Below, in pieces: positions 7,098 through 53,061 of a DNA stretch of 64,000 bases. The DNA is from Escherichia phage vB_EcoS_ESCO30: sequence record NC_106513.1. One strand, written 5' to 3'. The notes beneath the pieces are model-generated. The model saw only the letters and a program-made list of their open reading frames with translations, was not told the DNA's origin and ran no database searches. The position numbers and the translations under genes were made by a program. The first letter of the stretch is position 1; every line of letters begins with the position of its first letter.

Positions 7098-7113
7098 ATT
7101 AGGATCAACAAAA

Positions 7114-30377: not shown

Positions 30378-30759
30378 TTAATCCCGGAACATAAATCCCA
30401 ACACGATTTAATTGTTCTTTAGCTTCTGCGAGAATATCTGGAGTGTACTCCCAAATATCATTTTCCACCTGTAAAAGATGGGGCGAACAACCGTCATCAG
30501 GCACACGACATATGGCCAAACCACGTGGATGGAACAAAGAGAAATTTAGTGCAACAATTAAACCCATAGCAGACAACTCATTCCAATCCAATTCCCATTC
30601 CCTAGCGTAGCCTGATAGGAAAACACCAATACAGGGATAGTCTATTTGCTGCTTCGGAAAAGTGAAGGAAGCTTGTCTTACCCCCAACCAACGTTGTAGC
30701 AGCTTCTCCGCACGCTTCACCAAACTAGGATCAATCTGACGCCAATATACTTGTTCCAT
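30367..30759 (-). CDS. hypothetical protein (paralog A of tandem pair)
   Basis: 130 aa; shares PCIG...W.ELD.MGL..ALN..LF.P... and C-terminal G(I/Y)xxPGL with neighbour. Confidence 0.5.
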   Translation of the reverse strand: MEQVYWRQIDPSLVKRAEKLLQRWLGVRQASFTFPKQQIDYPCIGVFLSGYAREWELDWNELSAMGLIVALNFSLFHPRGLAICRVPDDGCSPHLLQVENDIWEYTPDILAEAKEQLNRVGIYVPGLNDE

Positions 30760-30768
30760 TGTGCCCCC

Positions 30769-31197
30769 TTAGGCAGTTAAACCAGGAATCTGATAACCAA
30801 AACGACGAAGTTTCTGGATACCATCATTTACCTCTTCCGGCGAGTAAGACCAACCGTAGTGTTCATTAACTTGAAAGCCCGGAGATTCACTGGTTTTATA
30901 ATTAACAACAATACGGTGTTTATTGGGCATAAATAGCTTATAGTTTAATGCAAAAACCAATCCCATTTCATCCAGCTCTTTCCATCCGACAATCTCTTCA
31001 AGACCATCCTCTACCTGCACAATTAAACCAATACAGGGAGCCTCTTCAATCTCACCTTTAAAAGCAAAGGAGATTTCATTATTCTCACACCATATTTTCA
31101 GAGCATTAATAGCCTCGTTGTACAGGTTGGCTGGAAGAGTACGCCAAAAATTAACCAATATTGGGTTAGCTTCTTTAGAAAATACATTATTGAACAT
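30769..31197 (-). CDS. hypothetical protein (paralog B of tandem pair)
   Basis: 142 aa; same motif pattern as 30367-30759. Confidence 0.5.
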   Translation of the reverse strand: MFNNVFSKEANPILVNFWRTLPANLYNEAINALKIWCENNEISFAFKGEIEEAPCIGLIVQVEDGLEEIVGWKELDEMGLVFALNYKLFMPNKHRIVVNYKTSESPGFQVNEHYGWSYSPEEVNDGIQKLRRFGYQIPGLTA

Positions 31198-31199
31198 AT

Positions 31200-31706
31200 T
31201 TACACCTTAAATTGTTGTAGGGCTTTACACATTTCAAGATCTGGACTAAATTCTAACATATAGCTAACAGCTCTTAAATCTTGAAGATTTATTCCAGTCC
31301 TACCGTTGACTATAACCGTTGGATACTGATACATCATAGCACCCGCATCATCAAGCACACACCAATGTTTGAGCTTATGCTTTTCAACGAAACGAAGAAC
31401 AGAATTACCCCTAGATAATCCACCCCCAGTAAAATCCGTTGTACCAAGAAAACGATCGATAAGACCTAATCCGGTCATAATCTGAACGTTCTCCATCTCA
31501 TTTCTGACAGAGAACCAAGATGATACTCCAACAATCATTATCGGAGAAGGACGAATAAAGTCCTGAAAAGCCTTGAGAAGCGGTTTAAAAACCCAGTCAC
31601 TTCCAAAGAAAATCTTTTCATCATCAGGTGCATGGTGATGAGAGATGCTCGAGTTGAGTACCCCATCAATATCTAGAAAAATAATTGGAGTATTACTTAT
31701 TTCCAT
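31200..31706 (-). CDS. HAD-superfamily hydrolase (possible 5'-deoxynucleotidase)
   Basis: IIFLDIDGVLN motif I of HAD phosphatases; later VLDD acidic motif. Confidence 0.55.
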   Translation of the reverse strand: MEISNTPIIFLDIDGVLNSSISHHHAPDDEKIFFGSDWVFKPLLKAFQDFIRPSPIMIVGVSSWFSVRNEMENVQIMTGLGLIDRFLGTTDFTGGGLSRGNSVLRFVEKHKLKHWCVLDDAGAMMYQYPTVIVNGRTGINLQDLRAVSYMLEFSPDLEMCKALQQFKV

Positions 31707-31875
31707 TTTTGTCCCTTTCTAAGAACGTATCATACTCAACCGTATCAACATATATGACACCATAGTCATCAGATTTATAGTCCATTTCCCATAGCTCACA
31801 TCGATAACACCAACTACCATCCGCCCATACAAATATATCATCGGGATGTGTATATACAGATTTAACTATGGACAT
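31693..31875 (-). CDS. hypothetical protein
   Basis: 60 aa ORF overlapping neighbours by a few codons (translational coupling). Confidence 0.3.
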   Translation of the reverse strand: MSIVKSVYTHPDDIFVWADGSWCYRCELWEMDYKSDDYGVIYVDTVEYDTFLERDKNGNK

Positions 31876-32698
31876 ATCTGTTTCCCCTCATCTCCGGTAC
31901 ATAAGGTCTACCCTCTAGATGGGCTTCTACACGAGCAATAAAATCAGGGTCACTGAAAGCATCTACCGCACCTTTACTCCAGTAAGGGATACCGCGTTCT
32001 TCCAACTGGTACATCTCACTACGAGTCATACCTTGATAGCCTGGTTCCGCCGCTAGGGCACTATCGTAGTAGTTAACTACCATAAGTTTCGCAGCAGTAC
32101 GATTAAGAGTAGGAAATAGTTCCCAGTAGAAGTTAATTACTTGGTTAGAGCAACCAACTACAACGATCATATCTTGACTGGTAATACCATCAAAAATATT
32201 GTACATTTCTGCGTACGCTGGAGCATGCTCACCAAAGAAGATTACATTAGGTTTAACCCATTTATAATCATCTGGGTCAATAGAGTTATACCCAACATCA
32301 ATAACTCGTTTATTACTACTATTGTAGCTGTCAGCTACAACAACCTCTTTTAAATATCCGTGAATGTGCAGAATGTCACTATGTGGAACACCAGCACGCT
32401 CAATAAGATCATCAACGTTAGTAGTCAAATTTACTACTTGACCCGGATATTTCTTATACCATTCACCAATACGCAGGTGTGCAAGATTGGGTTCAACAGT
32501 TTCTAACTCTTCACGACGTTTGTTGTAAAACGTGTGGGTTTTATGATAAAAATTACCACGAAAGGCATGAATATTACATATCTCTTCTAAGTCATAATCA
32601 TCCCACAATGCTTTACCACTAGCAGTATCAGTACGGAAGGCTCGTACACCACTTTCAACACTCAAACCTGCACCGCTAATAATAATTAATCTACGCAT
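31862..32698 (-). CDS. Sir2-like (sirtuin-family) protein lacking zinc-ribbon cysteines
   Basis: GAGLSVESGVRAFR matches sirtuin NAD-binding motif GAGxSxxSGIPxFR; catalytic HG (HIHGYL); no CxxC pairs. Confidence 0.6.
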   Translation of the reverse strand: MRRLIIISGAGLSVESGVRAFRTDTASGKALWDDYDLEEICNIHAFRGNFYHKTHTFYNKRREELETVEPNLAHLRIGEWYKKYPGQVVNLTTNVDDLIERAGVPHSDILHIHGYLKEVVVADSYNSSNKRVIDVGYNSIDPDDYKWVKPNVIFFGEHAPAYAEMYNIFDGITSQDMIVVVGCSNQVINFYWELFPTLNRTAAKLMVVNYYDSALAAEPGYQGMTRSEMYQLEERGIPYWSKGAVDAFSDPDFIARVEAHLEGRPYVPEMRGNRYVHS

Positions 32699-32912
32699 TT
32701 TTCACCTGTTCTCTGAAGTTTTTACTAAGGTTATGGAGTATATCAGATACTTCTGGATGGGCTTTCCCAACTACAGAATTAGCCATAATATCCATTATTT
32801 TTGCACAAGATTCAACCCCATCCTTATACCCAGCCTCCCACTGCTGCATCAATGCATTTTCCAGCGCAGCATTTAAGCCGTTATCGGGTAGCATCGGCTT
32901 CGAGAATGCCAT
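32691..32912 (-). CDS. hypothetical protein
   Basis: 73 aa ORF. Confidence 0.35.
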   Translation of the reverse strand: MAFSKPMLPDNGLNAALENALMQQWEAGYKDGVESCAKIMDIMANSVVGKAHPEVSDILHNLSKNFREQVKNA

Positions 32913-33084
32913 AAAGTTTCTCCTCTAGTTCCATAATACGACTTTCATAAGAAGCACGCAACTTTTCAATTGCTAGCGCACGCACCATAACCTCATTAGA
33001 GTTAATAGCTAATTGAGCTAGCTCTTCAGTTTCCATACGTCCGTTATAGATTAAGCGATATTTAAGGTGTTTTACGTTTTTCAT
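32881..33084 (-). CDS. hypothetical protein
   Basis: 67 aa ORF. Confidence 0.3.
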   Translation of the reverse strand: MKNVKHLKYRLIYNGRMETEELAQLAINSNEVMVRALAIEKLRASYESRIMELEEKLYGILEADATR

Positions 33085-33293
33085 TCTATGTCCTCAAACA
33101 ATTCAATTTCTGCATTTGCAATTAAAAGAGCTGGTTCCGATAAGCATATGCCTGATCTAGGGTCAATCTTCTCCTTATCCATCCAAGTATTTATTAAGCA
33201 AAATTTAGTAACATCTTCTCTTAGAATAGATCCATATGCTCCTGAGTCCATAACAAAATAGATACGATCTTTATCTACCTTATGAATCCTCAT
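33081..33293 (-). CDS. hypothetical protein
   Basis: 70 aa ORF directly downstream of conserved promoter/leader. Confidence 0.4.
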   Translation of the reverse strand: MRIHKVDKDRIYFVMDSGAYGSILREDVTKFCLINTWMDKEKIDPRSGICLSEPALLIANAEIELFEDIE

Positions 33294-33321
33294 ATCTTTC
33301 TCCTCTCAAATTTATAAATCT

Positions 33322-33350
33322 ATTATACATATATTTTTAGCTGAAAGCAA
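33322..33350 (-). promoter_or_regulatory. sigma70-like early promoter
   Basis: Minus strand TTGCTT-17-TATAAT plus conserved leader. Confidence 0.5.
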
Positions 33351-33392
33351 ATAAAATAAAAGCCAGGTCGACTAGCAACCTGGCTGATTATC

Positions 33393-35219
33393 TTACTTAA
33401 GATTTAAGTGTTTTACTCTACCAAGCACTTCTTTTTGTTTCCCAGAATTGAAAGGCCTACTGCCCGGGGATCCCAGGTACCCGCAAACCCTACGTGTAAC
33501 CTCTATTTCTTCAGACCCACAACTTGGACATACAAACCCACGCTCAGAGGCAATAGATTCACCCATATATCCGCAGTTGAAACACTCGTCAATCGGTATA
33601 TTAACACCGATATAATGGCTACACTCTAGTCCCTTATCTACTACGTATTCAAGAGCTTTATGGAATTTTTTCATTTGTGGTAATTCCACAAACGATATAT
33701 TACCCCCATTAGCTATTTTGGTAAAATGAGCTTCGTACTCAAATTTAGTATCTGGGGCTACCTTCTCTCTTACGTCCAAATGGTGACTATTAGTAAGATA
33801 GCCTTTGTCTGTTAACCAAGAATACTCTGGGAATCTACGTTCTAGTAATTTATTAAAACGATTACATAGAGACTCACTAGGAGTAGCGTATAAGCTAAAT
33901 CCAAGATTAGTCTCATTAGCTTTAACTTCGCAACGATTTTTTAAGTGAGTGAGAACTTCCTCTGTAAATTCAATACAGTCCCTATGAGTCTGTGGTAAAC
34001 TAAACATTATTTGGCACATCTCATAGACTCCAATATACCCAAGAGATACAGAAGATCTACCCTCAAAAATAGGCCATACATATTCTTCCCCCTCTAAACG
34101 TACACCAAAACCACCGTGCATATAAAGAATAGGGGCTTGTTTAGCCTTCACTTTCTTAAGTCTATCCAAGAAAAAATCATGAGCTTCAAAAGCCTCATCC
34201 ACATATTTGTCCAGAATATCCCAGAAATCTTCAAAAACCCCATCTGCCTCAGCAGCAACCATAGGTAGATTAATAGACACTACACCTAAATTATTGCGCC
34301 CTGCAATTTCTCCGGAGGGGATAGCAGATAAAAAGCTACGACAACCCATAGGGGCTTTAAAATCACCAGTAACAGCTACAACTTTCTCATAGCTTAAATA
34401 GTCTGGGTACATACGGGTAGCAGAACACTCAAGTGCTAGCTGTTTTATATCGTAGTTAGGATCGCCTGGATTTTTATTTAACCCTTCTTTAACTGAGAAT
34501 ACTAGTTTAGGGAAGATAGGGGTTGACTCAGCAGCACCTAAACCTTTAATACGATTTTGGAGGATGGCTTTCTGAATCATCCTTTCCTCCCACTCCTGAC
34601 CTAATCCAAAGCCAAGCGTAACAAAAGGGGTCTGCCCATTAGAGTTAAATAATGAATTAGTTTCATACTCTAGAGCTTGGAATGCATCATAACACTCTTT
34701 TTCAGTAAGCTCAGTGGCATACACAGCAGCTTTTCTTTCATCCTTGAGCCAACGTAGCCCACGACCCAGATGTTTATTGTAAGACTTTCTGACATACGGG
34801 GCTAGAACCTCGTCGATACGATCAATAGAGGTGCCACCATACTGAGCACCAGATACTTGGGCAATAATCTGAGCAGTGATTGCACATGCAGTAGTTATGG
34901 ATTTAGGAGTTTCAATATTTGCATTACCAATTTTAGTACCATTCTTCAGCATGCCACCAAGGTCTACTAAGCAACAGTTAGTGTACCCCTGCGCCCTGTA
35001 ATCCATATCATGAATGTGTATCTTACCTAGATTATGGGCGTCTAATAGATGTTTGGGTAATTCCTGCGATACTAAATACTTGTTGATTTCTCCGGCCAAT
35101 AAGTCTCTTTGAGTATGGAACATCTCACTAGGCTTATTAGCATTATTATGTTGTAAGTCTTTATCCGCAGTTAGAGTGAGCAGACCTTTGCAATTCTCAA
35201 TTAATTCATTCTCTGTCAT
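33393..35219 (-). CDS. nrdD: anaerobic ribonucleoside-triphosphate reductase (class III)
   Basis: 608 aa; C-terminal zinc site CxxC...CPxC and glycyl radical motif RVCGYLG. Confidence 0.85.
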   Translation of the reverse strand: MTENELIENCKGLLTLTADKDLQHNNANKPSEMFHTQRDLLAGEINKYLVSQELPKHLLDAHNLGKIHIHDMDYRAQGYTNCCLVDLGGMLKNGTKIGNANIETPKSITTACAITAQIIAQVSGAQYGGTSIDRIDEVLAPYVRKSYNKHLGRGLRWLKDERKAAVYATELTEKECYDAFQALEYETNSLFNSNGQTPFVTLGFGLGQEWEERMIQKAILQNRIKGLGAAESTPIFPKLVFSVKEGLNKNPGDPNYDIKQLALECSATRMYPDYLSYEKVVAVTGDFKAPMGCRSFLSAIPSGEIAGRNNLGVVSINLPMVAAEADGVFEDFWDILDKYVDEAFEAHDFFLDRLKKVKAKQAPILYMHGGFGVRLEGEEYVWPIFEGRSSVSLGYIGVYEMCQIMFSLPQTHRDCIEFTEEVLTHLKNRCEVKANETNLGFSLYATPSESLCNRFNKLLERRFPEYSWLTDKGYLTNSHHLDVREKVAPDTKFEYEAHFTKIANGGNISFVELPQMKKFHKALEYVVDKGLECSHYIGVNIPIDECFNCGYMGESIASERGFVCPSCGSEEIEVTRRVCGYLGSPGSRPFNSGKQKEVLGRVKHLNLK

Positions 35220-36111
35220 TGATTATTTCCTCGATAAACTTTATAGCTACTTTTGGTTCAATATTGAAGAATTCCGTAGCGCCGTCAAAATCTTTGTACT
35301 GGCAATTCTGCTCTTTAAAGTAGTTATGGGCTAATTTTTCTATTCGAACTGCACTACTATATTCTCCAATTTCAAATACTTTAATTATTTCCAAATCAGT
35401 AAGGTGGCTACTAGATCTAATTTGTAGAAGCCTACGCTCTGGGTTGTTAGATCTACCTATTTTAACCCCATGTGAGGGGCTATGCATAATATATATCCTA
35501 GTACTTTCTAAATCTCTATAATTACAGTAAGGACAACCGTTCCCTCTTAATACAGATCCTGGAGTAGCTTCCCACCTATGCCCTGCACCACAAAGAAAGG
35601 CGGTCTTAGTATTCGCGTTACTATACTCACCCACTATTCTGATATTTCTGGCAGCAAGACGATCATTTATAGTATTAACACTAAGTTTTTGTTTATTAGT
35701 AGCACAAGATGGGCAGCCACTACCTCTATTAATTATACTATTAAGTGTAGTAGCCCACTCATGACCACAAACACACCTAAATTTAGTATTTATATCGGCA
35801 CTATTTTTATAGCCGTTCAACAATGTAATACCTCTGTCCTGTAATACAGTATTAATTCTATCAATATCTAGTTTACGGCTACTAATAGAGCAAGTAGGAC
35901 AATTGGTCTTTCCATTCCTAATAGCGTCAAATTTAGCTGTCCATTGGTGACCGTATTCACACTGATACGTATGCCTATACCTAGAATTTTGATATGGCTT
36001 ATCCACCATAGTAAAACCACGCTCGGCTAGGCATTTATCTACTTCTTCTTGAGTTAATTTTTTCGGCATTCCACTTCTCCACAGAATTTTTACGGCATTC
36101 CACTTCTCCAC
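35206..36111 (-). CDS. T5orf172-domain protein with three zinc-ribbon repeats
   Basis: Three CxxGHxW...CPxC repeats, then ...VKIGRSNNPERRLLQIR... T5orf172-type motif; true start probably the internal Met (MPKKL). Confidence 0.6.
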   Translation of the reverse strand: MEKWNAVKILWRSGMPKKLTQEEVDKCLAERGFTMVDKPYQNSRYRHTYQCEYGHQWTAKFDAIRNGKTNCPTCSISSRKLDIDRINTVLQDRGITLLNGYKNSADINTKFRCVCGHEWATTLNSIINRGSGCPSCATNKQKLSVNTINDRLAARNIRIVGEYSNANTKTAFLCGAGHRWEATPGSVLRGNGCPYCNYRDLESTRIYIMHSPSHGVKIGRSNNPERRLLQIRSSSHLTDLEIIKVFEIGEYSSAVRIEKLAHNYFKEQNCQYKDFDGATEFFNIEPKVAIKFIEEIINDRE

Positions 36112-36123
36112 AGAATTTTTACA
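36064..36123. repeat. perfect 30-bp tandem direct repeat (2 copies)
   Basis: CGGCATTCCACTTCTCCACAGAATTTTTAC occurs twice back to back. Confidence 0.9.
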
Positions 36124-36292
36124 CCTATTATACTAAACATTATCCACTATGTCAATTAAAATTTTCTTTCGTCATCTAATACTGTAATATTTCGCATATA
36201 AATAAATGATTATCTAGTATCATATTTCTACCTTTATAAGCAAGTAAATTTTTTACTTAAAAGCAATATCATAGGTTTATTTAAAATTATAC

Positions 36293-36321
36293 TTGCTTTT
36301 TGCTGTAAACCTTGTTATAAT
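36293..36321 (+). promoter_or_regulatory. sigma70-like early promoter (TTGCTT-17-TATAAT)
   Basis: Consensus hexamers with AT-rich upstream region, upstream of phoH. Confidence 0.5.
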
Positions 36322-36397
36322 ATATTTGTAAGTTGATAAACAAGATCTCTTTGTTGATCCTCTGTTAGAAGCGAAGTACACTATAGGAGTGTTATTT

Positions 36398-37150
36398 ATG
36401 GGAAAAGCACGTCAAAAAAGAGAGAACCGCAATGGTTCAAGAAAGCGTGGCAACAAATATGAGAATAACGTAATTCAGGCTGATTTTTCTAATGATTACG
36501 CTAATCCAGTTGCTAAATCCCTAGTAGGTAAAAACCGCGAGCAAAAATCATATATCAATATGATCAAGAACAACACAGTGACTGTGGGTATTGGTGAGCC
36601 AGGTACAGGTAAAACCTTTATTCCGTCTGTTCTTGCAGCTCAGGAACTCGTAGACATTCACTCAGATATTGAGCAAGTGATCCTCGTACGTCCTAATGAA
36701 CCTCTAGGTAAGTCTCTTGGTATGCTTCCTGGTGATCTAGCGGAAAAGCTAGAGCCTTGGTTAGAGCCAATAGCTGATGGTATGAAATGGGCCATCGGTG
36801 ATCATGCCTATAAGGGATATGTCGAACGTCAGAAAATTAAATTTTTGGCTATAGAACATGCTCGTGGCAGAACTTTCAACAACTCCTATGTAATTGTCGA
36901 TGAAGCTCAGAATATTTCCGTTGAGGCAATGGTTTGTCTCCTAACTCGTGTAGGACAAGACTGCCGTTTAATTATCTGCGGAGATATAGCTCAGAAAGAC
37001 ATTAAAGGTGACTCAGGTCTAGCACTACTTATGGAAGTCTATGAGAAATACGAAAATGCCCCATTCTCAATGATCGAATTGATTGATAACGTTCGTTCTG
37101 TTGAGTCTAAAGCATTCTATGATATTTTTAAAGACATGGGGAAGGTGTAA
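36398..37150 (+). CDS. phoH: PhoH-like ATPase
   Basis: Walker A GEPGTGKTF, Walker B VIVDEAQN; start set at ATG after TAGGAG SD. Confidence 0.8.
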   Translation: MGKARQKRENRNGSRKRGNKYENNVIQADFSNDYANPVAKSLVGKNREQKSYINMIKNNTVTVGIGEPGTGKTFIPSVLAAQELVDIHSDIEQVILVRPNEPLGKSLGMLPGDLAEKLEPWLEPIADGMKWAIGDHAYKGYVERQKIKFLAIEHARGRTFNNSYVIVDEAQNISVEAMVCLLTRVGQDCRLIICGDIAQKDIKGDSGLALLMEVYEKYENAPFSMIELIDNVRSVESKAFYDIFKDMGKV

Positions 37151-37151
37151 T

Positions 37152-37349
37152 ATGGGAAACGTCGTACATCTACACCGTAAAACTAAAATACATCGTACTT
37201 CACTGAGTGCTGCTAATATGATTACACGTAAGGAAGGGGAAGAAAGTCCTAAGACTACCCTAGCGTGGAAAATTGTAACCTCAAATCCAAATCGGCCCTT
37301 CAATTATAATGAACTAAGTACCTCAATAGATATTCTGCTGAGAACTTAA
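37152..37349 (+). CDS. hypothetical protein
   Basis: Small ORF starting 1 nt after phoH stop (MGNVVHLHRK...). Confidence 0.35.
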   Translation: MGNVVHLHRKTKIHRTSLSAANMITRKEGEESPKTTLAWKIVTSNPNRPFNYNELSTSIDILLRT

Positions 37350-37494
37350 GTGGCCAAAAACTAGACTGACAACACAGAAGGCCTGGGTATGAAAATACTC
37401 GGGCCTTTTCTATCAGAAAATTTTATTTGCCAAATGACTGAGAATAAAGTAAACTATTTCCTAAATCCCGATAACCATAAAAAAGGAAAACCAA

Positions 37495-39825
37495 ATGAGC
37501 CATCGCATTGAAAAAGTAATTAAACGTGACGGTACTGTAGAAGACTTTGCTCCTGAAAAACTCAATGGTTGGGCAGAGTATGGTTGCAAAACAGTTGATG
37601 TAAGTTGGTCAGCCATTACTATGGCTGCTCAAAAAACTCTGCCTAAAGGGGTTGTAGATTCCGATACTCTGATGGATGCGTTAATTAAAGCTGCTGAAAG
37701 TCTTATCAAAGATAATCCAGCATACGACGTACCAGCAAAGGAACTACGTCTTGCGCAGATGCGTAAACGTCTTTATGATTCCTTCGAACCACCTTCTCTA
37801 CGCTTCTTCCACGATCATATGGTTAGTGTAGGTGCATGGGAAGACATGAGTGCATGGATTACCGATGAGCAGTTTGAGGCTTTGAATCAGGTTATTGACC
37901 ATGATCGCGACCGACTTTTTACTAGTGGTGGACTGAAGCAGTTCTTTGATAAGTATTCCCGTCGTAACATAGCCACTGGTGAAATTTATGAAACTCCGCA
38001 GTTTGCCTACATGGGTATGGCAATGGCGATGCTATCTCAACCTAACTGGACAATTCTAGATGCAATCGACCTCTACAACGCAATGTCACTCCACAAAATC
38101 AACGTTCCTACGCCGCCACTGGTTGGTCTGCGCTCTAGTGACCGTGGATTTGCTAGTTGTTGCCTCGTTGATTCCACTGACACATTGGATTCAATCGACA
38201 CAGCCGAGCACATCGTCTTCAAAATGGTCGCAGCCAGAGCGGGAATCGGGTATCATCTTGAAAGCCGATCAATTGCTGATCCGGTGCGAAATGGGGCATT
38301 CCCGCATTCCGGAAAACTGCCATATTATCGACACATTGACCGCTCAGTAAAGGCCAATACTCAGCAAACTCGTGGTGGTTCTGCTACAGTGTCTTATTCA
38401 TACTTTGACCCTGAAATCATTCAATTGATGCAGGTTAAGCAGCAACGTGCTACAGATGAGAATAAAATCGATAAGATGGATTATTCTCTGAGCTTCAACA
38501 ATCTTTTGTTAAAACGTTATCTGAAAAATGAAGATATTACGCTAATGTCATACTTCTATGCTCCAGAAGTTCATGAAGCGTTTTATAGTGATGACGAGGC
38601 TAAATTTGAAGAAATCTATGTGGCAGCGGAGAAACGTGTGGCATCTCTTACAAAGATCGACCACGAAGGAAAAACAGTTCCAGCAGCTCCTAAAGTCTCT
38701 GCAAAAGAAATCCTAGATACTTGGCTACGTATCCGAATGGAAACAGGACGTATGTATGCCCACCACATCGGGGAATCTAATCGTCACGGTAACTTCCTTG
38801 ATCCGATCCGTATGACAAACCTTTGTGTTGAGATTACTCAGCCTACACGCCCGTTCCATCATATCACGGAACTGTATAAAACAAAAGAACAACTTGATCA
38901 AATGAAGCCGGAGGATATTGGTGAAGTATCTCTGTGTAACTTAGGTGGTGTTGTACTTGGACGCATGGAATCTCTGGCTGAGTGGGAAAAAACTTGCTAC
39001 ATCCTTCTGAAATTCGTTGATACAATTATCGAAATTCAGGATTATCCGTTCCCAACTATGGAATATACGGCTAAGAAACGTCGTAATGTTGGTATTGGCC
39101 TAATGAACGCAGCAGGTGCAATGGCCGCAGAAGGTCTGGCTTACGAAGGTATTGAAGCCCGTAACTGGATTCACCGTGAGGCTGAAAAACTGTCCTACTT
39201 CCTGCATAAAGCCTCTGTACGCCTAGCTAAAGAACAGGGTGCATGTGAGTGGTTTGATCGTACTAAACCATCTAAAGGAATTCTGGTAATCGACACGTAC
39301 AAGAAAACTGTTGATGAACTGGTATCCGTAGGTCTAGAAATGGATTGGGAGTCTCTACGTGCAGATATTCTGAAATATGGTATGCGTAACTCTGTTCTGA
39401 CTGCTCAGATGCCGGGAGAAAGTTCTTCTGTTCTGTTAGGTGTTACTAACTCTATCGAACCACCACGTAAGATTGTATCTATCAAGGGTAGTGCAGTAAA
39501 TAAAGTAATTGCAATTGCTCCAGGTGCAACCGATTGGGAAACGTTAATGAGCTATAAACTGGCTTATGATGTAGATCGTATCGAGTGGATCAAATGGGTA
39601 GCAACTATGCAGAAATTCTTCAGTCAGTCTATCAGTACGAATATGTACTATGACTACACCAAGTTTGAGAATGAAATCATTCCTGGCCCAGTAGTAGTTC
39701 GTGATTTCATGACTGCTGTTAAGTATGGGTGGAAAACCTTCTACTACGCAAACTTCAACACCGAAAATGGTGGGGGTGCTGGAGAAGAAGCAGCCGGTTG
39801 TGCATCCGGTGGTTGTACTATTTAA
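37495..39825 (+). CDS. nrdA: ribonucleoside-diphosphate reductase large subunit (class Ia)
   Basis: 776 aa; N-terminal ATP-cone-like segment, catalytic-core motifs, C-terminal CxxGGC...redox tail. Confidence 0.85.
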   Translation: MSHRIEKVIKRDGTVEDFAPEKLNGWAEYGCKTVDVSWSAITMAAQKTLPKGVVDSDTLMDALIKAAESLIKDNPAYDVPAKELRLAQMRKRLYDSFEPPSLRFFHDHMVSVGAWEDMSAWITDEQFEALNQVIDHDRDRLFTSGGLKQFFDKYSRRNIATGEIYETPQFAYMGMAMAMLSQPNWTILDAIDLYNAMSLHKINVPTPPLVGLRSSDRGFASCCLVDSTDTLDSIDTAEHIVFKMVAARAGIGYHLESRSIADPVRNGAFPHSGKLPYYRHIDRSVKANTQQTRGGSATVSYSYFDPEIIQLMQVKQQRATDENKIDKMDYSLSFNNLLLKRYLKNEDITLMSYFYAPEVHEAFYSDDEAKFEEIYVAAEKRVASLTKIDHEGKTVPAAPKVSAKEILDTWLRIRMETGRMYAHHIGESNRHGNFLDPIRMTNLCVEITQPTRPFHHITELYKTKEQLDQMKPEDIGEVSLCNLGGVVLGRMESLAEWEKTCYILLKFVDTIIEIQDYPFPTMEYTAKKRRNVGIGLMNAAGAMAAEGLAYEGIEARNWIHREAEKLSYFLHKASVRLAKEQGACEWFDRTKPSKGILVIDTYKKTVDELVSVGLEMDWESLRADILKYGMRNSVLTAQMPGESSSVLLGVTNSIEPPRKIVSIKGSAVNKVIAIAPGATDWETLMSYKLAYDVDRIEWIKWVATMQKFFSQSISTNMYYDYTKFENEIIPGPVVVRDFMTAVKYGWKTFYYANFNTENGGGAGEEAAGCASGGCTI

Positions 39826-48679: not shown

Positions 48680-48902
48680 ATATTCATAAATTAGAGAACA
48701 GCGAGCCGATTACGCTGAGTGCAGAATCCCAACCGGAGCGCATTGAATAGAGTCGGTGGGTTAGTTGGAAAACTAGTACACAGGGGGCGGCAATCCCGGT
48801 TAGTGGCTAGAACGTGTAAAATGAGGCGTCTGAAACCTCTCCCCTAAACTCTTCTCTAATTTACTGATAGTGGGGTGTGGAAATCACTTATGTAGTAACA
48901 CT

Positions 48903-48974
48903 GCCGATCTAGTATAAACGGTATTATCAAGCCGTAACTGGTGGAAGATGTAGGTTCGAATCCTACGGTCGGTA
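48903..48974 (+). tRNA. tRNA-like element (anticodon not assignable)
   Basis: 7-bp acceptor pairing (2 G-U) and consensus T-arm GTAGG-TTCGAAT-CCTAC; D and anticodon arms do not fold canonically. Confidence 0.3.
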
Positions 48975-49476
48975 AGAACTGGATAACTGGTGCTTTTAAC
49001 GTAAAAGCTTCCGAGGTTAGTTGCGCACTGCCTAAACCACGCGGTAGTTGGTTCCAGACTAACCAACCAGTCTGCTGAATAGTTTTATTACGATTTAACT
49101 ATGTCCAGGCATAAAGAAGAACTTTAGAAGGTATTCTAGGTAGTGAAGTTTTTCCTCCATATCGGAGTAGTTTTTCAAGCTATCCACAAAGTGGGAAATG
49201 ATGGCATGAGAGATGCCACTAATGGTGCACAATAGCACAGGTAATTCGCGATAACCCCTGTTGAGTAGCAGCAAAAAGGTGGGGAGTCATGACCCTAACC
49301 TAACCGAGTCCTCAGTATACCGCAGGACATAACCACTAAGTCACCTTGACTTAAACTGGAAAATAATAGACGTTACTGTATTTTGTCTTGAAATACTTAA
49401 TGAGTGAGACTTATGACTCTCCCGGTATCGTCTGTATTTTTAAGAGTTTTTACGAGAGTTCTTAAAAATACTTAAA

Positions 49477-49585: not shown

Positions 49586-50533
49586 ATGTTTAATACTAAA
49601 AATATGAAAGAACTGACTTCTGAGCAAAAAGTAATTCGCACTATTAAACGTTGGGGTATTGGTGCTGTAGTTGGTTTAGCAGGTTTAATCCTAGCTTTTA
49701 ATTCATATACTATTGTTTCTGATGGTACGGTTAAAACCCAAACATTTCTGGGTAAAGTAGATCCTAACCCAGTATTACCTGGTTTCCATCTTGTAAACCC
49801 ATTTGCATCTTTCGATACTTTTAGTACAAAAGATATTGCTGTAAAATTAGATAAACTTCAGGTTCCTAGCCAGGATAAGTTTAAATCCACTGTTGACCTG
49901 ACTGTTATGTTACAATTTGATGGTTCTAAGGCACCGATCAACCGTATTAACGCAGGTACTCAGGATCAGGCGTTAGATAAGTATGTAACTGAGAAATTGC
50001 TATCTACTATTCGTGAATTTGGTAAGTCTGTTCCTAAAGCACAAGATTTGTTTGACGCTAAAATTCAGGCACAATTGCAAACCGCAATTCAACAGGAAGT
50101 TGAAGAGTATGCACGCCCCTATGGTTACACAGTTAAGCAAGTATTCCTTCAGGATATTACATTGCCACCGGTAATTATGGAACAGGTACAGAATACCAAA
50201 GTTCGTGAAGAACAAGTTAATGCTGCGAAAGCTGAATTGGCTCGTGTTGAACAAGAAGCACAGCAGAAGGTTAAACAAGCAGAAGCAGATCGTGAAGCTC
50301 GTAACAACCAAGCTATTGCAAACGAACGTGATGCAGATGCTAAACTGTACGCAGCTAAGAAAGAAGCTGAAGCTAACGCTGCTCTGCAACGTACTATTAC
50401 TCCTGAGATGATTCGTTGGAAACAACTAGAAGTTGAAATGATTCGTGCTCAGAAATATCAAGGTGGTGTACCGCAAACAGTAGTTGGCACTGGTTACGAT
50501 GGCCAGATGATTATGGATATGCGTAACAAGTAA
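49586..50533 (+). CDS. SPFH/band-7 (prohibitin/HflC-like) domain membrane protein
   Basis: N-terminal TM helix, ...PGFHLVNPF... SPFH start motif, long C-terminal coiled coil. Confidence 0.55.
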   Translation: MFNTKNMKELTSEQKVIRTIKRWGIGAVVGLAGLILAFNSYTIVSDGTVKTQTFLGKVDPNPVLPGFHLVNPFASFDTFSTKDIAVKLDKLQVPSQDKFKSTVDLTVMLQFDGSKAPINRINAGTQDQALDKYVTEKLLSTIREFGKSVPKAQDLFDAKIQAQLQTAIQQEVEEYARPYGYTVKQVFLQDITLPPVIMEQVQNTKVREEQVNAAKAELARVEQEAQQKVKQAEADREARNNQAIANERDADAKLYAAKKEAEANAALQRTITPEMIRWKQLEVEMIRAQKYQGGVPQTVVGTGYDGQMIMDMRNK

Positions 50534-50557
50534 TACCCACATGTAATATTCGAAGTA

Positions 50558-50596
50558 AGCCCTGCGTTCCCTGGAGAGCGCAGGGCTTTTCTGTAT
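50558..50596 (+). terminator. rho-independent terminator
   Basis: GCCCTGCG-loop-CGCAGGGC hairpin followed by TTTTCTG. Confidence 0.65.
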
Positions 50597-50607
50597 TTAA
50601 GGTAAAA

Positions 50608-50645
50608 GAAAAGCCCCTAAGTCTTTCGACTAGGGGCTTTATTGT
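50608..50645. terminator. second hairpin terminator (bidirectional)
   Basis: GCCCCTAG-TCTTTCGA-CTAGGGGC hairpin with A-run upstream and T-run downstream. Confidence 0.6.
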
Positions 50646-50653
50646 TTGGTTCT

Positions 50654-50848
50654 TTAGAACCATATACTCTTATTACAGCAACCACCCATACGGGAGGCCA
50701 ATCTTGACTGAAAATCTACTCTAGGGGGCAGGATAAGAGTAGGCTTAAAGGCAAAGGGATTGAACGCCGGTATTTGTGTAAACATTGCTGGAGAGCAACA
50801 ACGTGCTACAGGCATTGGGCAGCACGAAACAGATTTTCTGCAACACAT
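50654..50848 (-). CDS. hypothetical Cys-rich small protein (uncertain)
   Basis: 64 aa ORF, 8 Cys, immediately downstream of Gln-rich gene; may be non-coding. Confidence 0.2.
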   Translation of the reverse strand: MCCRKSVSCCPMPVARCCSPAMFTQIPAFNPFAFKPTLILPPRVDFQSRLASRMGGCCNKSIWF

Positions 50849-50857
50849 AATTCCTCC

Positions 50858-51274
50858 TTAGGAGTTATTATCACCATTTTGAGCTTTTGCAACTTGGCTT
50901 TGGCAGAAGCTATTAAACTTACCCATAAGTGATACAAGCTGTTTCCCATCCTCTGTCTTTGCGAAGTCTTCGAAAAGGGCTAGTACTGCCTGTCCTTCCG
51001 CAGAAACCTGCGGTTGTTGGGTTTGTTGCTGAACTTGCTGCTGAGCCACCTGTTGCTGCATTTGTTGAGGCATTTGCGACTGCCCGCTCATTTGCTGCAT
51101 CATTTGCATAGGACTCACACTTCCAGGGTTTTGCTGGAGTTGTTGCTGCATCTGTTGCGCTTCTGCTAAACGCTGTTGCAACTGTTGTAGGTAAGGGTTA
51201 TCCAGTCCCGGAACGGGCTGCTGGGAGCCCATTTGTTGATTAAATCCGTTGTTTACAAAACCATATTTACTCAT
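50858..51274 (-). CDS. Gln-rich low-complexity protein
   Basis: 138 aa; extended QQ/QM repeats; SD upstream. Confidence 0.5.
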   Translation of the reverse strand: MSKYGFVNNGFNQQMGSQQPVPGLDNPYLQQLQQRLAEAQQMQQQLQQNPGSVSPMQMMQQMSGQSQMPQQMQQQVAQQQVQQQTQQPQVSAEGQAVLALFEDFAKTEDGKQLVSLMGKFNSFCQSQVAKAQNGDNNS

Positions 51275-51295
51275 AATGGGCTCCTCCCCTTAATT

Positions 51296-52276
51296 TTAAG
51301 CCGGCAGTTTAGCCTGCAGACCAGCCAGAGTCTGAGTGATAGCACCAAGACTTACAGCGATTTGGTTGATTACCTGACCGTTTGCACCACTACCTGCAGC
51401 GATTGCTTCGCGCAGACGGCATTCATTCAGTTCGTCCTGGATACGTGCAGTAGTTACACCAGCGATTGCAGTCTGAAGCTCACAGCAACATTCAGCAAGC
51501 TGACGTTCGATAGCGTTCTGGTTAGCACACATCTGAGCCTGAACAGCGGCAAACTGGTTGTTGGTCTGAATAGACTGCTGGAAAGCAATCTGAGCAGAGT
51601 CAAACTTATCTTGAGCACGTGCTATCTGGTTAGCAGCGAAAGACTGATCCATCTGACGAGAAAGATCGAACTGACCCTGAATAACGTTACGAGTTTCAGC
51701 ACAGATCTGATTTGACAGATTAGCACCTGTACCATAGATAGTAGTCAGAACTTGCTGAGTGCTAGCAGCTTGAGCAGCTCCCACACCGTTTACTGCGCTT
51801 AGAACAGCCCCAGTGCCCTGGTTAGCTTCTGTACGAGTAGTATTGATTGCAGCTAGAATACTTGCAGTATCTTGGTTAGAAAGGATCGCGTCCACAGCAG
51901 TTCCTTCAGCGGCAACACCAACACCGCGACCAAAACCACCAAAACCACCAAATCCGCCTGTTAATAGAGCACCGATTAGGATAGCTCCGAATAGACCCAT
52001 ACCTTCTCCACCGAAAGCACTTGCGTTAGCTGGGAATGCACCCATGCCAGGGAAGCCGTTAGTAAATACGTTTACTGGTTCTTGCATTTTATGTTTTCCA
52101 TATTTATGACAATGTTCATCATCGTCATCTTCTTCATCTTTATCATCGTGTTCACGATGTTCTTCTTCGTAGGCTTTGACTTTCTCCCACTTTTTCTTAT
52201 CTGATTCCTCGTGACGATGCAGTTCTGCTGCTACGCTAGCGACGGTTTCAGGACTCTTAGCTACTTCTTCTGTCAT
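51296..52276 (-). CDS. hypothetical protein with acidic/His-rich N-terminus and Gly-rich hydrophobic segment
   Basis: Start set at MTEEV after strong AGGAGGTG SD; GLFGAILIGALLTGGFGGFGGFG segment; Ala/Gln-rich coiled C-terminus. Confidence 0.55.
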   Translation of the reverse strand: MTEEVAKSPETVASVAAELHRHEESDKKKWEKVKAYEEEHREHDDKDEEDDDDEHCHKYGKHKMQEPVNVFTNGFPGMGAFPANASAFGGEGMGLFGAILIGALLTGGFGGFGGFGRGVGVAAEGTAVDAILSNQDTASILAAINTTRTEANQGTGAVLSAVNGVGAAQAASTQQVLTTIYGTGANLSNQICAETRNVIQGQFDLSRQMDQSFAANQIARAQDKFDSAQIAFQQSIQTNNQFAAVQAQMCANQNAIERQLAECCCELQTAIAGVTTARIQDELNECRLREAIAAGSGANGQVINQIAVSLGAITQTLAGLQAKLPA

Positions 52277-52483
52277 TTTTTGACACCTCCTAGTATATAG
52301 AAAATGTGTGTCTCTTTGATCACTCATCCATAACATATACTTTACACTACCCCGGCGAAAATGTCAAGGGGTCTTTAAAAATTGCCCCCGGATTTTTAGT
52401 GGGGTCACAAATTTTGGTCCTCACCACTTATCTGCTACCCTTAAGTGCCCTATGATTTTCCCCTAAAAAGTTAAAAAATTTGA

Positions 52484-52512
52484 TTGCTTGAATGCTAAAT
52501 TCTCTGTATAAT
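52484..52512 (+). promoter_or_regulatory. sigma70-like early promoter
   Basis: TTGCTT-17-TATAAT plus conserved leader. Confidence 0.5.
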
Positions 52513-53061
52513 ATATCTATAAATTTGAGAGAGGAACCAAATATGAATGTTGATGAGCTAACACAGCACCTCTTATCTAGGGGATTTGATACTGATAAAT
52601 ATCATTGCTGGTTAAGTCCGGAAGGATGGCTAACAGTCCCGTTGTATGATTTCTCTGGGATGTTGAGGGGCTATCAAACTTATAATCCTTCTGCTCCAAA
52701 AGGTCATGGTAAGTGCCCCCTTGAAGCTAAATACTTTACTTATTCTACCACCCAGTGTGTATGGGGACTAGAAACTCTCAATGGAGATGAAAAAGTAGTA
52801 TTGATCGCTGAATCTGTATTTAAGGCAGTTGCGTTACATAACGCTGGTTATCCAGCCATAGCAATGTTGGGTTCTTCTCCAGGAAAAGCGTTATTAAAGC
52901 AACTAAAATTACTACCTTTTAAATTGGTAGCTGTTGGTGATAATGATCCTGCTGGTGAAAAATTTGCTAGAAAATTAAACGGTTTTGTTTCTCCCGTAGA
53001 TGTGGATGAGATGTCTACCGAAAACTTGAAAAATTTTCTTGCTATGAAGCTAAATTTCTAA
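52492..53061 (+). CDS. hypothetical protein
   Basis: 189 aa ORF; probable start at internal Met MNVDELT after GAGAGAGG SD. Confidence 0.45.
   Translation: MLNSLYNISINLREEPNMNVDELTQHLLSRGFDTDKYHCWLSPEGWLTVPLYDFSGMLRGYQTYNPSAPKGHGKCPLEAKYFTYSTTQCVWGLETLNGDEKVVLIAESVFKAVALHNAGYPAIAMLGSSPGKALLKQLKLLPFKLVAVGDNDPAGEKFARKLNGFVSPVDVDEMSTENLKNFLAMKLNF

What the first reader, a model, noticed from the sequence alone, without database searches (positions are those of the whole stretch)
50858..52276. Minus-strand gene pair encoding a Gln-rich protein and a Gly-rich membrane protein with His/acidic N-terminus, embedded in the plus-strand tRNA region
Two genes are transcribed against the surrounding plus-strand block, with a strong SD but no member of the repeated promoter family upstream. 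One product is dominated by poly-Gln/QM repeats. The other combines a His/Asp/Glu-rich N-terminus, a GxxxG-rich hydrophobic segment (GLFGAILIGALLTGGFGGFGGFG) and an Ala/Gln-rich coiled C-terminus. The composition resembles membrane-active or condensate-forming proteins; function is unknown.
Basis: partly seen in the sequence, partly recalled or inferred. Interest (0 to 1): 0.55.

Follow-up and report, generated by a model that had tools for sequence, protein, structure and literature searches.

The report
Uncharacterised three-gene accessory cassette of phage T5

Summary
The window is a T5/BF23-like coliphage, about 98% identical over this stretch. The finding is the annotated "hypothetical" genes T5.077 (326 aa) and T5.078 (138 aa).

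It is incomplete in two ways:
- A third co-transcribed gene, T5.079 (64 aa, four Cys-Cys pairs), lies at 50654-50848.
- The operon does have a promoter. It is T5 "P12", a diverged member of the phage's early-promoter family. A strong terminator follows the operon.

All three genes co-occur strictly (221/221/220 phage records). They are cleanly absent from about 128 other T5 relatives. They recur in the same order in the unrelated Pseudomonas phage KPP23.

They are dispensable: "Not Fit" in the published T5 CRISPRi-ART screen, and disrupted in the viable T5Mos deletion strain.

T5.077 belongs to a wider uncharacterised phage superfamily (358 representative clusters). Its members share a Gly-rich hydrophobic anchor, a roughly 200-residue helical domain and an invariant CCC. 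No Pfam, NCBIfam, PADLOC, PDB or fold match exists for any of the three proteins.

Best guess, which is inference only: an abundant membrane-tethered, cysteine-linked complex with a conditional role in host envelope interaction or competition.

The genes are known but their function is open. Interest is moderate to low.

The parts
52339..52385 (-). Promoter P12 of the operon. It has an UP-like TTTTTAAAGA, -35 TTGACA (52367-52362), a 17-nt spacer and -10 TAAAGT (52344-52339). The discriminator ATATG and a GATGAG box follow just downstream.
   Evidence: Consensus scan gives 10/12 matches. It is annotated as promoter P12 in T5 and BF23 and as a putative early promoter in AY587007. Its modules are shared with the plus-strand TTGCTA-17-TATAAT-ATATT family. 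PMC7472727 states that T5 early promoters carry ATATT in the discriminator.
51296..52276 (-). Gene 1, the T5.077 orthologue (326 aa). It has a charged N-domain, a Gly-rich hydrophobic anchor, a helical domain of about 200 residues and an invariant CCC.
   Evidence: ORF list and sequence. PHROG 8119, E 1e-197. dN/dS 0.07-0.23. Fop 0.637, rank 7/84. The upstream in-frame ATG at 52336 lies at the -10 element, so it is not in the transcript; distant orthologues start at MT(E/D)E.
52085..52276 (-). N-terminal charged His/Asp/Glu-rich domain of gene 1 (residues 1-64). It contains a confidently predicted helix (12-44) followed by a variable acidic/His low-complexity stretch.
   Evidence: AF2 pLDDT is 90-97 for residues 11-40. 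Length and His content vary between relatives, for example HHYHHHHHEH in some and no His run in L004 or KPP23.
51929..51997 (-). Gly-rich hydrophobic segment of gene 1 (residues 94-116, GLFGAILIGALLTGGFGGFGGFG), the putative membrane anchor.
   Evidence: Kyte-Doolittle 19-residue mean is 1.72. G92 and G113 are nearly invariant across the superfamily.
51482..51490 (-). Invariant Cys-Cys-Cys (residues 263-265) in the helical domain of gene 1.
   Evidence: These are the only invariant columns in the 41-sequence superfamily alignment. They are nearly invariant in the 78-sequence alignment.
50858..51274 (-). Gene 2, the T5.078 orthologue (138 aa). It has a conserved N-helix (NPYLQQLQQRLxEAQxMQQQL), a variable Gln/Met/Pro linker and a conserved C-terminal domain of about 45 residues with an invariant Cys124.
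   Evidence: PHROG 7894, E 1e-79. dN/dS 0.10-0.34.
50654..50848 (-). Gene 3, the T5.079 orthologue (64 aa, net charge +7, 12.5% Pro). It has four vicinal Cys pairs at residues 2-3, 9-10, 17-18 and 57-58.
   Evidence: ORF with SD AAGGAGG. It is annotated in T5 and BF23. It is found in 220 phage records, mostly unannotated. MCC...CC ORFs of 60-69 aa sit in the same position in L004, L009 and Pseudomonas phage KPP23.
50602..50640 (-). Intrinsic terminator of the operon: a 13-bp G+C-rich hairpin followed by a U-tract. It lies back to back with the plus-strand terminator of the SPFH gene at 50557-50588.
   Evidence: RNA fold -21.9 kcal/mol, z = -4.6. It is annotated as a bidirectional terminator in T5 and BF23. 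It is the only part retained in relatives that lack the cassette.

Best explanation
**Shown**
- This is the T5.077-T5.078-T5.079 operon of a T5/BF23-like phage.
- It is a self-contained transcription unit with its own sigma-70 early-type promoter (P12) and its own terminator. It runs opposite to the surrounding tRNA block.
- It behaves as a mobile accessory cassette. The three genes always occur together. Many close relatives lack them cleanly. An unrelated Pseudomonas phage carries them in the same order. T5 does not need them in the laboratory.

**Inferred**
- T5.077 is probably made in large amounts early in infection.
- It is probably tethered to the cytoplasmic membrane by its Gly-rich hydrophobic segment.
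- It projects a helical domain of about 200 residues with few charges, carrying an invariant Cys-Cys-Cys.
- T5.078 (helix, flexible Gln/Pro linker, 45-residue domain with one invariant Cys) and T5.079 (a basic 64-residue peptide with four Cys-Cys pairs) are its partners.
- The conserved cysteines of all three hold the complex together, through bound metal if the domain faces the cytoplasm, or through disulfides if it faces the periplasm.

**Most likely role**
A conditional one at the cell envelope, such as excluding competing phages, evading a membrane-linked host defence, or stabilising the infected envelope. A role in replication, assembly or canonical lysis is unlikely.

**How sure**
The identity and anatomy are near certain. 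The confidence given (0.4) is for the inferred complex and role.
For: **Identity and anatomy**
- 96-98% DNA identity to T5, BF23 and OSYSP. The annotation there gives promoter P12, three CDS with RBSs, and a bidirectional terminator.
- Promoter modules are shared with the early family. Terminator fold z = -4.6.

**Coding**
- Third-position-dominated variation and dN/dS well below 1.
- Gene 3's MCC...CC pattern is retained at very different DNA composition in KPP23.

**Functional linkage**
- 221/221/220 phage records carry the three proteins.
- The same gene order is seen in distant T5-like contigs L004 and L009 and in the 62.8-kb Pseudomonas siphovirus KPP23.
- Some single-gene relatives carry a Cys-rich tail fused at their C-terminus, for example ...NCGCGGNNGCC. 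This suggests the Cys-rich peptide acts at that end.

**Accessory status**
- The cassette is cleanly absent, with only the terminator kept, in TrudiRoth and about 128 other Markadamsvirinae records.
- All three genes are "Not Fit" in the T5 CRISPRi-ART screen (PMC11879866 supplements).
- The viable T5Mos deletion 30661-38625 removes P12 and the 5' part of T5.077 (PMC11464382; T5 coordinates).
- The cassette has 46-47% G+C against 39% for the window.

**Abundance**
- T5.077 has Fop 0.637, rank 7 of 84 ORFs, about 2.3 sd above the median.

**Membrane anchor and helical domain**
- Hydropathy 1.72.
- AF2 with a 78-sequence alignment predicts helices 136-165, 173-273 and 277-323.
- CCC is invariant across the superfamily.

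**Not canonical lysis**
- T5-like phages already have a holin, an endolysin and Rz-like spanins elsewhere (PMC4342426 and PMC11664485).
Against: - Nothing here shows expression, localisation, complex formation or any phenotype. The function is pure inference.
- Topology is unresolved.
  - Short family members have no Lys/Arg before the hydrophobic segment and one Arg after it, which suggests N-out/C-in.
  - The T5-type N-domain has 93 residues and 12 Lys/Arg, which argues against its export.
- AF2 does not model the Gly-rich segment as a full transmembrane helix. Overall confidence is modest (pLDDT 64, pTM 0.28).
- Heptad periodicity is not significant.
- T5.078 and T5.079 have no signal peptides. 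A periplasmic disulfide-linked complex would therefore need some other export route.
- For gene 3, dN/dS is 0.23-0.66 on few changes, and its dS is lower than in its neighbours. An extra nucleotide-level constraint cannot be excluded.
- No hit in PADLOC or any other library supports a defence or counter-defence role.
Confidence: 0.4

Rival explanations
1. Auxiliary envelope-fusion or lysis device, analogous to spanins or class I fusion proteins. T5.077 would sit N-in/C-out and extend a long helical, disulfide-linked (CCC) domain across the periplasm. It would act late to destabilise or fuse the membranes, or to regulate lysis timing.
For: - The architecture of cytoplasmic N-domain, single hydrophobic segment and long helical domain with conserved Cys resembles the i-spanin Rz (established knowledge).
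- The 100-residue helix 173-273 would be about 15 nm long.
- The C-domain has few charges (13% charged), as in many exported proteins.
- Gene 3 is small and Pro-rich, like o-spanins.
- The T5 endolysin gene is about 3 kb away.
Against: - T5-like phages already encode Rz-like inner- and outer-membrane spanins in their lysis cassette.
- Gene 3 has no signal peptide or lipobox: its N-terminus is MCCRKSVSCCPMPVARCC (read directly).
- The promoter is of the early type.
- Knock-down has no fitness effect.
- Short family members have no positive charge N-terminal of the anchor, which argues against N-in/C-out.
Confidence: 0.1
2. Soft-metal handling module. The His/acidic N-domain of T5.077, the Met-rich tract of T5.078 and the vicinal Cys pairs of T5.079 plus CCC would bind or buffer Cu(I), Zn, Cd or similar ions at the membrane during infection.
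For: - 7 His in the N-domain, expanding to HHYHHHHHEH in some relatives.
- 7% Met in MxxM-like spacing in T5.078.
- 8 Cys in CC pairs in a 64-aa peptide, plus the invariant CCC.
- Vicinal Cys pairs are the metal ligands in MerT/MerF/MerA and Cox17, and Met-rich motifs bind Cu(I) in CusF, PcoC and Ctr1 (established knowledge, recalled, not tested).
Against: - The His run and the Met-rich tract are not conserved in L004, L009 or KPP23. Only the cysteines are conserved.
- No Pfam or NCBIfam metal-binding family is hit.
- Cys content of 12.5% is low for a metallothionein.
- There is no obvious reason for a lytic phage to need this.
Confidence: 0.12
3. One reading: prion-like or condensate-forming proteins. 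The Gln-rich T5.078 and the FG/Gly-rich T5.077 would phase-separate to organise a compartment in the infected cell.
For: - T5.078 is 28% Gln.
- T5.077 has (GGF)3 and a Gln/Asn-rich domain.
- High-expression codon usage of T5.077.
Against: - The poly-Gln tract shrinks to a short Pro/Gln linker in orthologues (L004: GKLPALPTPQPAQPQ; P0146 and P0147 have almost none). The flanking helix and C-domain stay nearly invariant.
- The Gln/Asn-rich part of T5.077 is predicted helical and carries conserved motifs, not disorder.
- The conserved hydrophobic core IGALL(x)GG looks like a membrane anchor.
Confidence: 0.06
4. Not functional genes: chance ORFs or decaying remnants on the antisense strand of the tRNA region.
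For: - All are annotated only as hypothetical.
- Gene 3 is unannotated in most records.
- The genes are dispensable.
Against: - Purifying selection on the ORFs.
- Shine-Dalgarno sequences, a promoter and a terminator.
- Conservation of all three ORFs across genera and in a Pseudomonas phage.
- A superfamily of 358 representative clusters.
Confidence: 0.02

Closest known systems
T5.077 / T5.078 / T5.079 of phage T5 (NC_005859), equivalent to ORF 326aa / 138aa / 64aa of BF23 (NC_042564); PHROGs 8119 and 7894
   Same: These are orthologues: 96-98% DNA identity, with the same promoter P12, RBSs, gene order and bidirectional terminator. PHROG matches are E 1e-197 and 1e-79.
   Different: Nothing substantive differs. 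These records give no function. One T5 record (AY587007) splits gene 1 into two ORFs and mislabels gene 2 as a cAMP-dependent protein kinase subunit.
Two-component spanins (lambda Rz/Rz1 type)
   Same: The overall look is similar: a bitopic protein with a long helical domain bearing conserved Cys, plus a small Pro-rich, Cys-containing partner encoded just downstream.
   Different: - No sequence or fold similarity.
- The small partner lacks a signal peptide and lipobox.
- There is an extra middle gene.
- The promoter is early.
- The genes are dispensable.
- T5 has bona fide spanins elsewhere.
Phage morons / accessory cassettes (self-contained promoter-gene-terminator units)
   Same: - Its own promoter and terminator, in opposite orientation.
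- Presence/absence polymorphism at a fixed site.
- Higher G+C than the genome.
- Dispensable, and horizontally shared with an unrelated phage.
   Different: Classical morons are defined in temperate phages and are expressed from the prophage. This cassette is in a strictly virulent phage and is expressed from an early lytic promoter.
Glycine-zipper membrane segments (Pfam Gly-zipper_Omp, Gly-zipper_OmpA, Gly-zipper_YMGG, Rick_17kDa_Anti)
   Same: A Gly-rich hydrophobic stretch containing small-xxx-small motifs.
   Different: No Pfam hit even at E <= 1. Gly spacing in the core is every fifth residue, and the tail is a (GGF)3 repeat.

Membership tests
T5.077-079 orthologous cassette (PHROG 8119 + PHROG 7894 + MCC peptide) | Full-length profile match of gene 1 to PHROG 8119 and of gene 2 to PHROG 7894 | tested here: met
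   E 1.4e-197 over 1-326 and E 1e-79 over 1-138.
T5.077-079 orthologous cassette (PHROG 8119 + PHROG 7894 + MCC peptide) | Same gene order, promoter P12 and bidirectional terminator, located between the Toprim gene and the SPFH gene | tested here: met
   Annotated T5 and BF23 regions align over 100% of the stretch at 96-98% identity.
Two-component spanin (Rz/Rz1) | The outer-membrane subunit has a lipoprotein signal peptide with a lipobox Cys | tested here: not met
   Gene 3 begins MCCRKSVSCCPMPVARCC, with no hydrophobic h-region and no [LVI][ASTVI][GAS]C box. Gene 2 begins MSKYGFVNNGFNQQ.
Two-component spanin (Rz/Rz1) | The inner-membrane subunit has an N-terminal transmembrane domain, N-in/C-out, with a periplasmic coiled coil | tested here: inconclusive
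   A hydrophobic segment is present (KD 1.72) and a helical C-domain is predicted. The charge distribution gives conflicting topology signals, and heptad periodicity is not significant.
Two-component spanin (Rz/Rz1) | It is the phage's outer-membrane disruption function, located in the lysis cassette | tested here: not met
   T5-like phages have separate Rz-like spanins next to the holin and endolysin (PMC4342426 and PMC11664485). Knock-down of the cassette is scored "Not Fit".
cAMP-dependent protein kinase catalytic subunit (the 'kapc' label on gene 2 in AY587007 and derived records) | Protein kinase catalytic domain | tested here: not met
   No Pkinase or any other Pfam domain above threshold in the 138-aa protein. 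No PDB hit with the family profile. The label is presumably a low-complexity Gln-rich artefact (inference).
Glycine-zipper Pfam families | Match to a Gly-zipper profile | tested here: not met
   0 Pfam families at E <= 1 for gene 1. Among 41 superfamily members there were only two chance hits to unrelated families.
Known anti-phage defence proteins (PADLOC) | Match to any PADLOC model | tested here: not met
   No hit at E <= 0.1 for any of the three proteins or for their KPP23 counterparts.
Accessory (moron-like) cassette | Autonomous promoter and terminator, presence/absence polymorphism at a conserved site, dispensability | tested here: met
   (signals). (present in TrudiGerster and EscoHU1; absent in TrudiRoth at the same site). 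(dispensable).
Prion-like / condensate-forming Gln-rich proteins | The Gln-rich low-complexity tract is the conserved, function-bearing element | tested here: not met
   The tract varies from about 10 to about 60 residues in length and varies in composition, while the flanking segments are nearly invariant.

The most novel reading that the evidence does not exclude
The cassette encodes a previously unrecognised kind of phage membrane complex. It would consist of an abundant anchor protein whose invariant Cys-Cys-Cys, together with a peptide bearing four vicinal Cys pairs and a third single-Cys subunit, forms a metal- or disulfide-bridged assembly at the inner membrane. It would be the founding characterised member of a superfamily of at least 358 clusters spread among virulent phages, and it would act in inter-phage competition or in evasion of a membrane-linked defence.
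Probability: 0.3. Interest if true: 0.6.

Novelty: already known. Interest (0 to 1): 0.35.

Why it matters
T5 is a model phage, yet this operon has sat in the databases for about 20 years without a function. It is probably highly expressed, strictly co-inherited and exchanged between phages.

This analysis adds the following:
- It is a three-gene unit.
- The small Cys-pair peptide is real, and it is usually unannotated or, in KPP23, annotated in the wrong frame.
- The cassette moves between unrelated phages.
- T5.077 represents a large uncharacterised phage superfamily marked by an invariant CCC.

If the cassette turns out to mediate exclusion or counter-defence at the membrane, it would explain part of the accessory gene content of the T5 tRNA region, where other genes are already known to counter PARIS and retrons. 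It would also annotate hundreds of metagenomic phage proteins. If it has no phenotype, it is ordinary phage dark matter.

Tried and rejected
**Library and structure searches that found nothing**
- Pfam, NCBIfam and PADLOC scans of all three proteins and of distant relatives: no hits.
- PHROGs: only unknown-function families 8119, 7894, 9288 and 16490.
- Profile searches against PDB sequences: best E 0.07 to an uncharacterised protein for gene 1, nothing for gene 2.
- AF2 with a 19-sequence alignment was poor (pLDDT 48).
- AF2 with 78 sequences was better (pLDDT 64), but Foldseek against PDB and BFVD gave no match below E 0.8.
- Rfam on 50400-52600: nothing near threshold, so no evidence that the gene 3 region is an RNA gene.
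- Scan of 185,579 bacterial species genomes for the short family type: none found, so it is not a prophage or host family at that sensitivity.
- tblastn of a short-type member against isolated phages: one weak hit only. That branch is essentially metagenomic.

**Contexts and literature that did not help**
- Genomic contexts of short-type relatives are inconsistent: after a tail fibre in one contig, after the capsid gene in another, near Cro-like genes in a third. They give no functional clue.
- No paper discusses these genes apart from the CRISPRi-ART tables.
- The Bas33 RNA-seq/proteome table is truncated in the held copy, and the cassette genes could not be found in it.
- The phiR2-01 virion proteome is irrelevant, because tblastn with gene 1 hit no Yersinia phage record.

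**Hypotheses rejected**
- The spanin hypothesis: no lipobox, and T5 has its own spanins.
- The "kapc" protein kinase annotation: no kinase domain.
Full report
**What the window is**

The stretch 50600-52500 is 96-98% identical to phages OSYSP, BF23, T5_ev219 and T5. 216 phage records cover at least 80% of it. The window's plus strand is the reverse complement of the T5 reference in this region.

In NC_005859 the finding corresponds to three CDS:
- T5.077 (966 nt)
- T5.078 (417 nt)
- T5.079 (195 nt)

"Promoter P12" precedes them and an "efficient bidirectional rho-independent terminator" follows them. On one side lies the Toprim protein T5.076, on the other the SPFH "lipoprotein" T5.080. All three are labelled hypothetical. 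The BF23 tRNA-region record annotates the same three ORFs (326, 138 and 64 aa), each with an RBS. A second T5 record (AY587007) splits the first gene into two ORFs and calls the second "cAMP-dependent protein kinase catalytic subunit".

**Checking the observation**

22 plus-strand tRNA genes surround them.
- Composition matches the description: 28% Gln and 7% Met in the 138-aa protein. The 326-aa protein has an N-terminal 64 residues with 22 Asp/Glu, 12 Lys/Arg and 7 His, and the segment GLFGAILIGALLTGGFGGFGGFG with a 19-residue hydropathy of 1.72. Its 210-residue tail has 40 Ala and 42 Gln+Asn.
- The ORFs are not chance. Against eight relatives, variable sites by codon position are 67/41/184 for gene 1 and 29/28/74 for gene 2. 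Pairwise dN/dS is 0.07-0.23 and 0.10-0.34.

1. A third gene (50654-50848, 64 aa) starts 9 nt after gene 2, behind AAGGAGG. It encodes MCCRKSVSCCPMPVARCCSP...GGCCNKSIWF, with four vicinal Cys pairs.
2. There is a promoter.
   - TTGACA-17-TAAAGT lies at 52367-52339, matching the consensus at 10 of 12 positions.
   - Set beside the plus-strand TTGCTA-17-TATAAT-ATATT promoters of the window, it shows the same upstream TTTTTAAAGA element, an ATATG discriminator and a downstream GATGAG box.
   - ATATT in the discriminator is the published hallmark of T5 early promoters (PMC7472727).
   - P12 is therefore a diverged member of the repeated family, not an exception to it.

The operon ends in a hairpin at 50640-50610 followed by a U-tract (-21.9 kcal/mol, z = -4.6).

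**Is the third ORF real?**

Within T5-like phages it is very conserved. It has few substitutions (dN/dS 0.23-0.66), and its dS is lower than in the neighbouring genes, which on its own is ambiguous.

The decisive evidence comes from distant relatives:
- Two divergent T5-like metagenomic contigs carry an ORF of 69 or 63 aa in the same position, starting MCC and holding a second CC. These contigs share 37-45% identity in gene 1.
- The Pseudomonas phage KPP23 carries a 60-aa ORF MCCNQPVPQCCGPF...GRCCKKFDCC, again with four CC pairs. It sits behind an SD and directly after the gene 2 homologue. The KPP23 record annotates a different frame there.
- Rfam finds no RNA family in the region.

**Linkage and mobility**

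- tblastn finds genes 1, 2 and 3 in 221, 221 and 220 phage records.
- A sensitive blastn shows about 128 further Markadamsvirinae records that match only the terminator end of the query.
- In TrudiRoth (Bas30) the NMN adenylyltransferase gene abuts the terminator and the SPFH gene with no cassette between them. TrudiGerster (Bas27) and EscoHU1 are both classified in the same genus, Epseptimavirus, and have the cassette at exactly that site.
- KPP23 is an unrelated 62.8-kb Pseudomonas siphovirus. It has the three genes in the same order at the head of a rightward gene block that also holds a putative exonuclease, and it has its own terminator.
- Cassette G+C is 46-47%, against 39% for the window.

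Together these show a co-inherited, horizontally exchanged accessory module.

**Dispensability**

- In the published transcriptome-wide CRISPRi-ART screen of T5, T5.077, T5.078 and T5.079 are each scored "Not Fit" and annotated "unknown function" (PMC11879866, supplementary files 8 and 16).
- The viable laboratory strain T5Mos carries the deletion 30661-38625 (PMC11464382). In NC_005859 coordinates this removes P12 (37954-38028) and the first about 560 nt of T5.077 (38064-39029). That the deletion coordinates refer to this reference is my inference from the genome paper they cite.

**What the proteins look like**

Gene 1:
- HMMER against 1.84 billion representative proteins with a family profile gives 358 clusters at E <= 1e-3 and 66 at E <= 1e-10.
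- Most are metagenomic Caudoviricetes proteins of 240-300 aa. They lack the charged N-domain and begin almost directly with the Gly-rich hydrophobic segment.
- They continue with Asn/Gln/Ser/Thr-rich helices bearing motifs such as NFTTLSSINGLGRD and TRALINDLNVQNLQAQL.
- The only invariant columns in a 41-sequence alignment are the three consecutive cysteines.
- These relatives fall into PHROGs 8119, 9288 and 16490, all of unknown function, and have no Pfam family.
- AF2 with 78 sequences (pLDDT 64) predicts a confident N-terminal helix (12-44), a disordered region 54-134 that includes the Gly segment, and helices 136-165, 173-273 and 277-323.
- No PDB or viral fold match is better than E 0.8.
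- A Fourier test for heptad spacing is not significant overall. Only the last about 70 residues show an a/d-like pattern by eye, which puts Cys264 in a core position.
- Codon usage is that of a highly expressed gene: Fop 0.637, rank 7 of 84 ORFs, against a median of 0.43.

Gene 2:
- The conserved parts are an N-terminal helix (NPYLQQLQQRLxEAQxMQQQL) and a C-terminal domain of about 45 residues (EGQAVLALFEEFAKTEDGKQLVSxMGKFNSFCQS) with an invariant Cys.
It varies from about 10 to about 60 residues and becomes Pro/Gln-rich or nearly vanishes in distant orthologues.

His run of gene 1:
- It is likewise lineage-specific. It is expanded to HHYHHHHHEH in some phages and absent in L004 and KPP23.

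**Topology is unresolved**

- Short family members have no Lys/Arg in their N-tails and a conserved single Arg just after the hydrophobic segment. The positive-inside rule then suggests N-out/C-in.
- The T5-type N-domain (93 residues, 12 Lys/Arg) is an unlikely export substrate.
- Genes 2 and 3 have no signal peptides.
- Some short members carry Cys-rich C-terminal tails.

I therefore slightly favour a cytoplasm-facing helical domain with metal-bridged cysteines. This is inference.

**Comparison with known systems**

- *Spanins.* The nearest architectural analogue is the two-component spanin, but membership fails. There is no lipobox in the small protein, no sequence or fold similarity, an early promoter and no fitness effect. 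T5-like phages have canonical Rz-like spanins elsewhere.
- *Other labels.* Glycine-zipper Pfam families, protein kinase ("kapc") and PADLOC defence models are all negative.
- *Moron-like cassette.* By organisation it behaves as one, although it is in a virulent phage.

**Verdict**

The finding is real and somewhat richer than described, but it is an already annotated operon of a model phage. Its function cannot be derived from sequence.

My working model is an abundant, membrane-tethered, cysteine-linked three-protein complex with a conditional role at the envelope. I hold the mechanistic part at about 0.4 confidence.

Rival explanations:

| Rival | Confidence |
|---|---|
| Metal-handling module | 0.12 |
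| Spanin-like or lysis accessory | 0.10 |
| Non-functional ORFs | 0.02 |

Interest is moderate to low (0.35). A specialist would not be surprised that T5 has uncharacterised accessory genes. The invariant CCC superfamily, the vicinal-Cys peptide and the cross-family mobility still make it a reasonable target for a deletion and competition study.

Noticed in passing
L020:6969-7151 (Pseudomonas phage KPP23, AB910392): The record annotates ORF072 in a GTG-initiated frame (6971-7165). The overlapping ATG ORF behind an SD encodes the conserved MCC...CC...CC...CC peptide. In most T5-like records the 64-aa gene is not annotated at all.
   Followed up: yes
window 50858-51274; AY587007 and derived records (ESCO40, EH3, UTK0010): Gene 2 carries a propagated mis-annotation, "cAMP-dependent protein kinase catalytic subunit (kapc)". 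No kinase domain is present. AY587007 also splits gene 1 into two ORFs (ORF072 and ORF073).
   Followed up: partly
window 48902-48975: ARAGORN calls a tRNA-Ser with the odd anticodon ACT. It lies upstream of tRNA-Arg(TCT), in the stretch that T5 and BF23 annotate as rnaX, a roughly 720-nt "stable RNA with unknown functions".
   Followed up: no
window about 50557-50600: T5 and BF23 annotate a major single-strand DNA interruption (nick) between the SPFH gene and the cassette terminator. Here the plus-strand terminator hairpin (50557-50588) and the minus-strand one (50640-50610) lie back to back.
   Followed up: no
window 52492-53061 (+): This is the Toprim-domain protein (T5.076 orthologue, annotated DNA primase). 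The CRISPRi-ART annotation table lists it as "subverts retron-mediated defense" and scores it Semi-Fit. The cassette's divergent neighbour is therefore an anti-defence gene.
   Followed up: no
window 20460-21227 (-): A 255-aa ORF has by far the highest fraction of E. coli optimal codons in the window (Fop 0.82, G+C 0.48). It is presumably a very abundant phage protein. Its identity was not checked.
   Followed up: no
window 50654-50848: Synonymous divergence of gene 3 between T5-like phages (dS 0.07-0.19) is lower than in gene 1, and than in gene 2 in three of five comparisons (0.35-0.96). This hints at an additional nucleotide-level constraint or at recent recombination.
   Followed up: partly
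P0343 (L011:5001-5798), P0167, P0166, P0158: Several short-type relatives of gene 1 end in Cys-rich tails, for example ...NCGCGGNNGCC and ...CCACG. This may be the fused equivalent of the separate Cys-pair peptide.
   Followed up: partly
window 49586-50533 (+): The convergent neighbour is an SPFH/Band-7 membrane protein (Pfam E 2e-17) that also has high-expression codon usage (Fop 0.57, rank 10). It is retained in relatives that lack the cassette, so the two are not obligately linked.
   Followed up: partly
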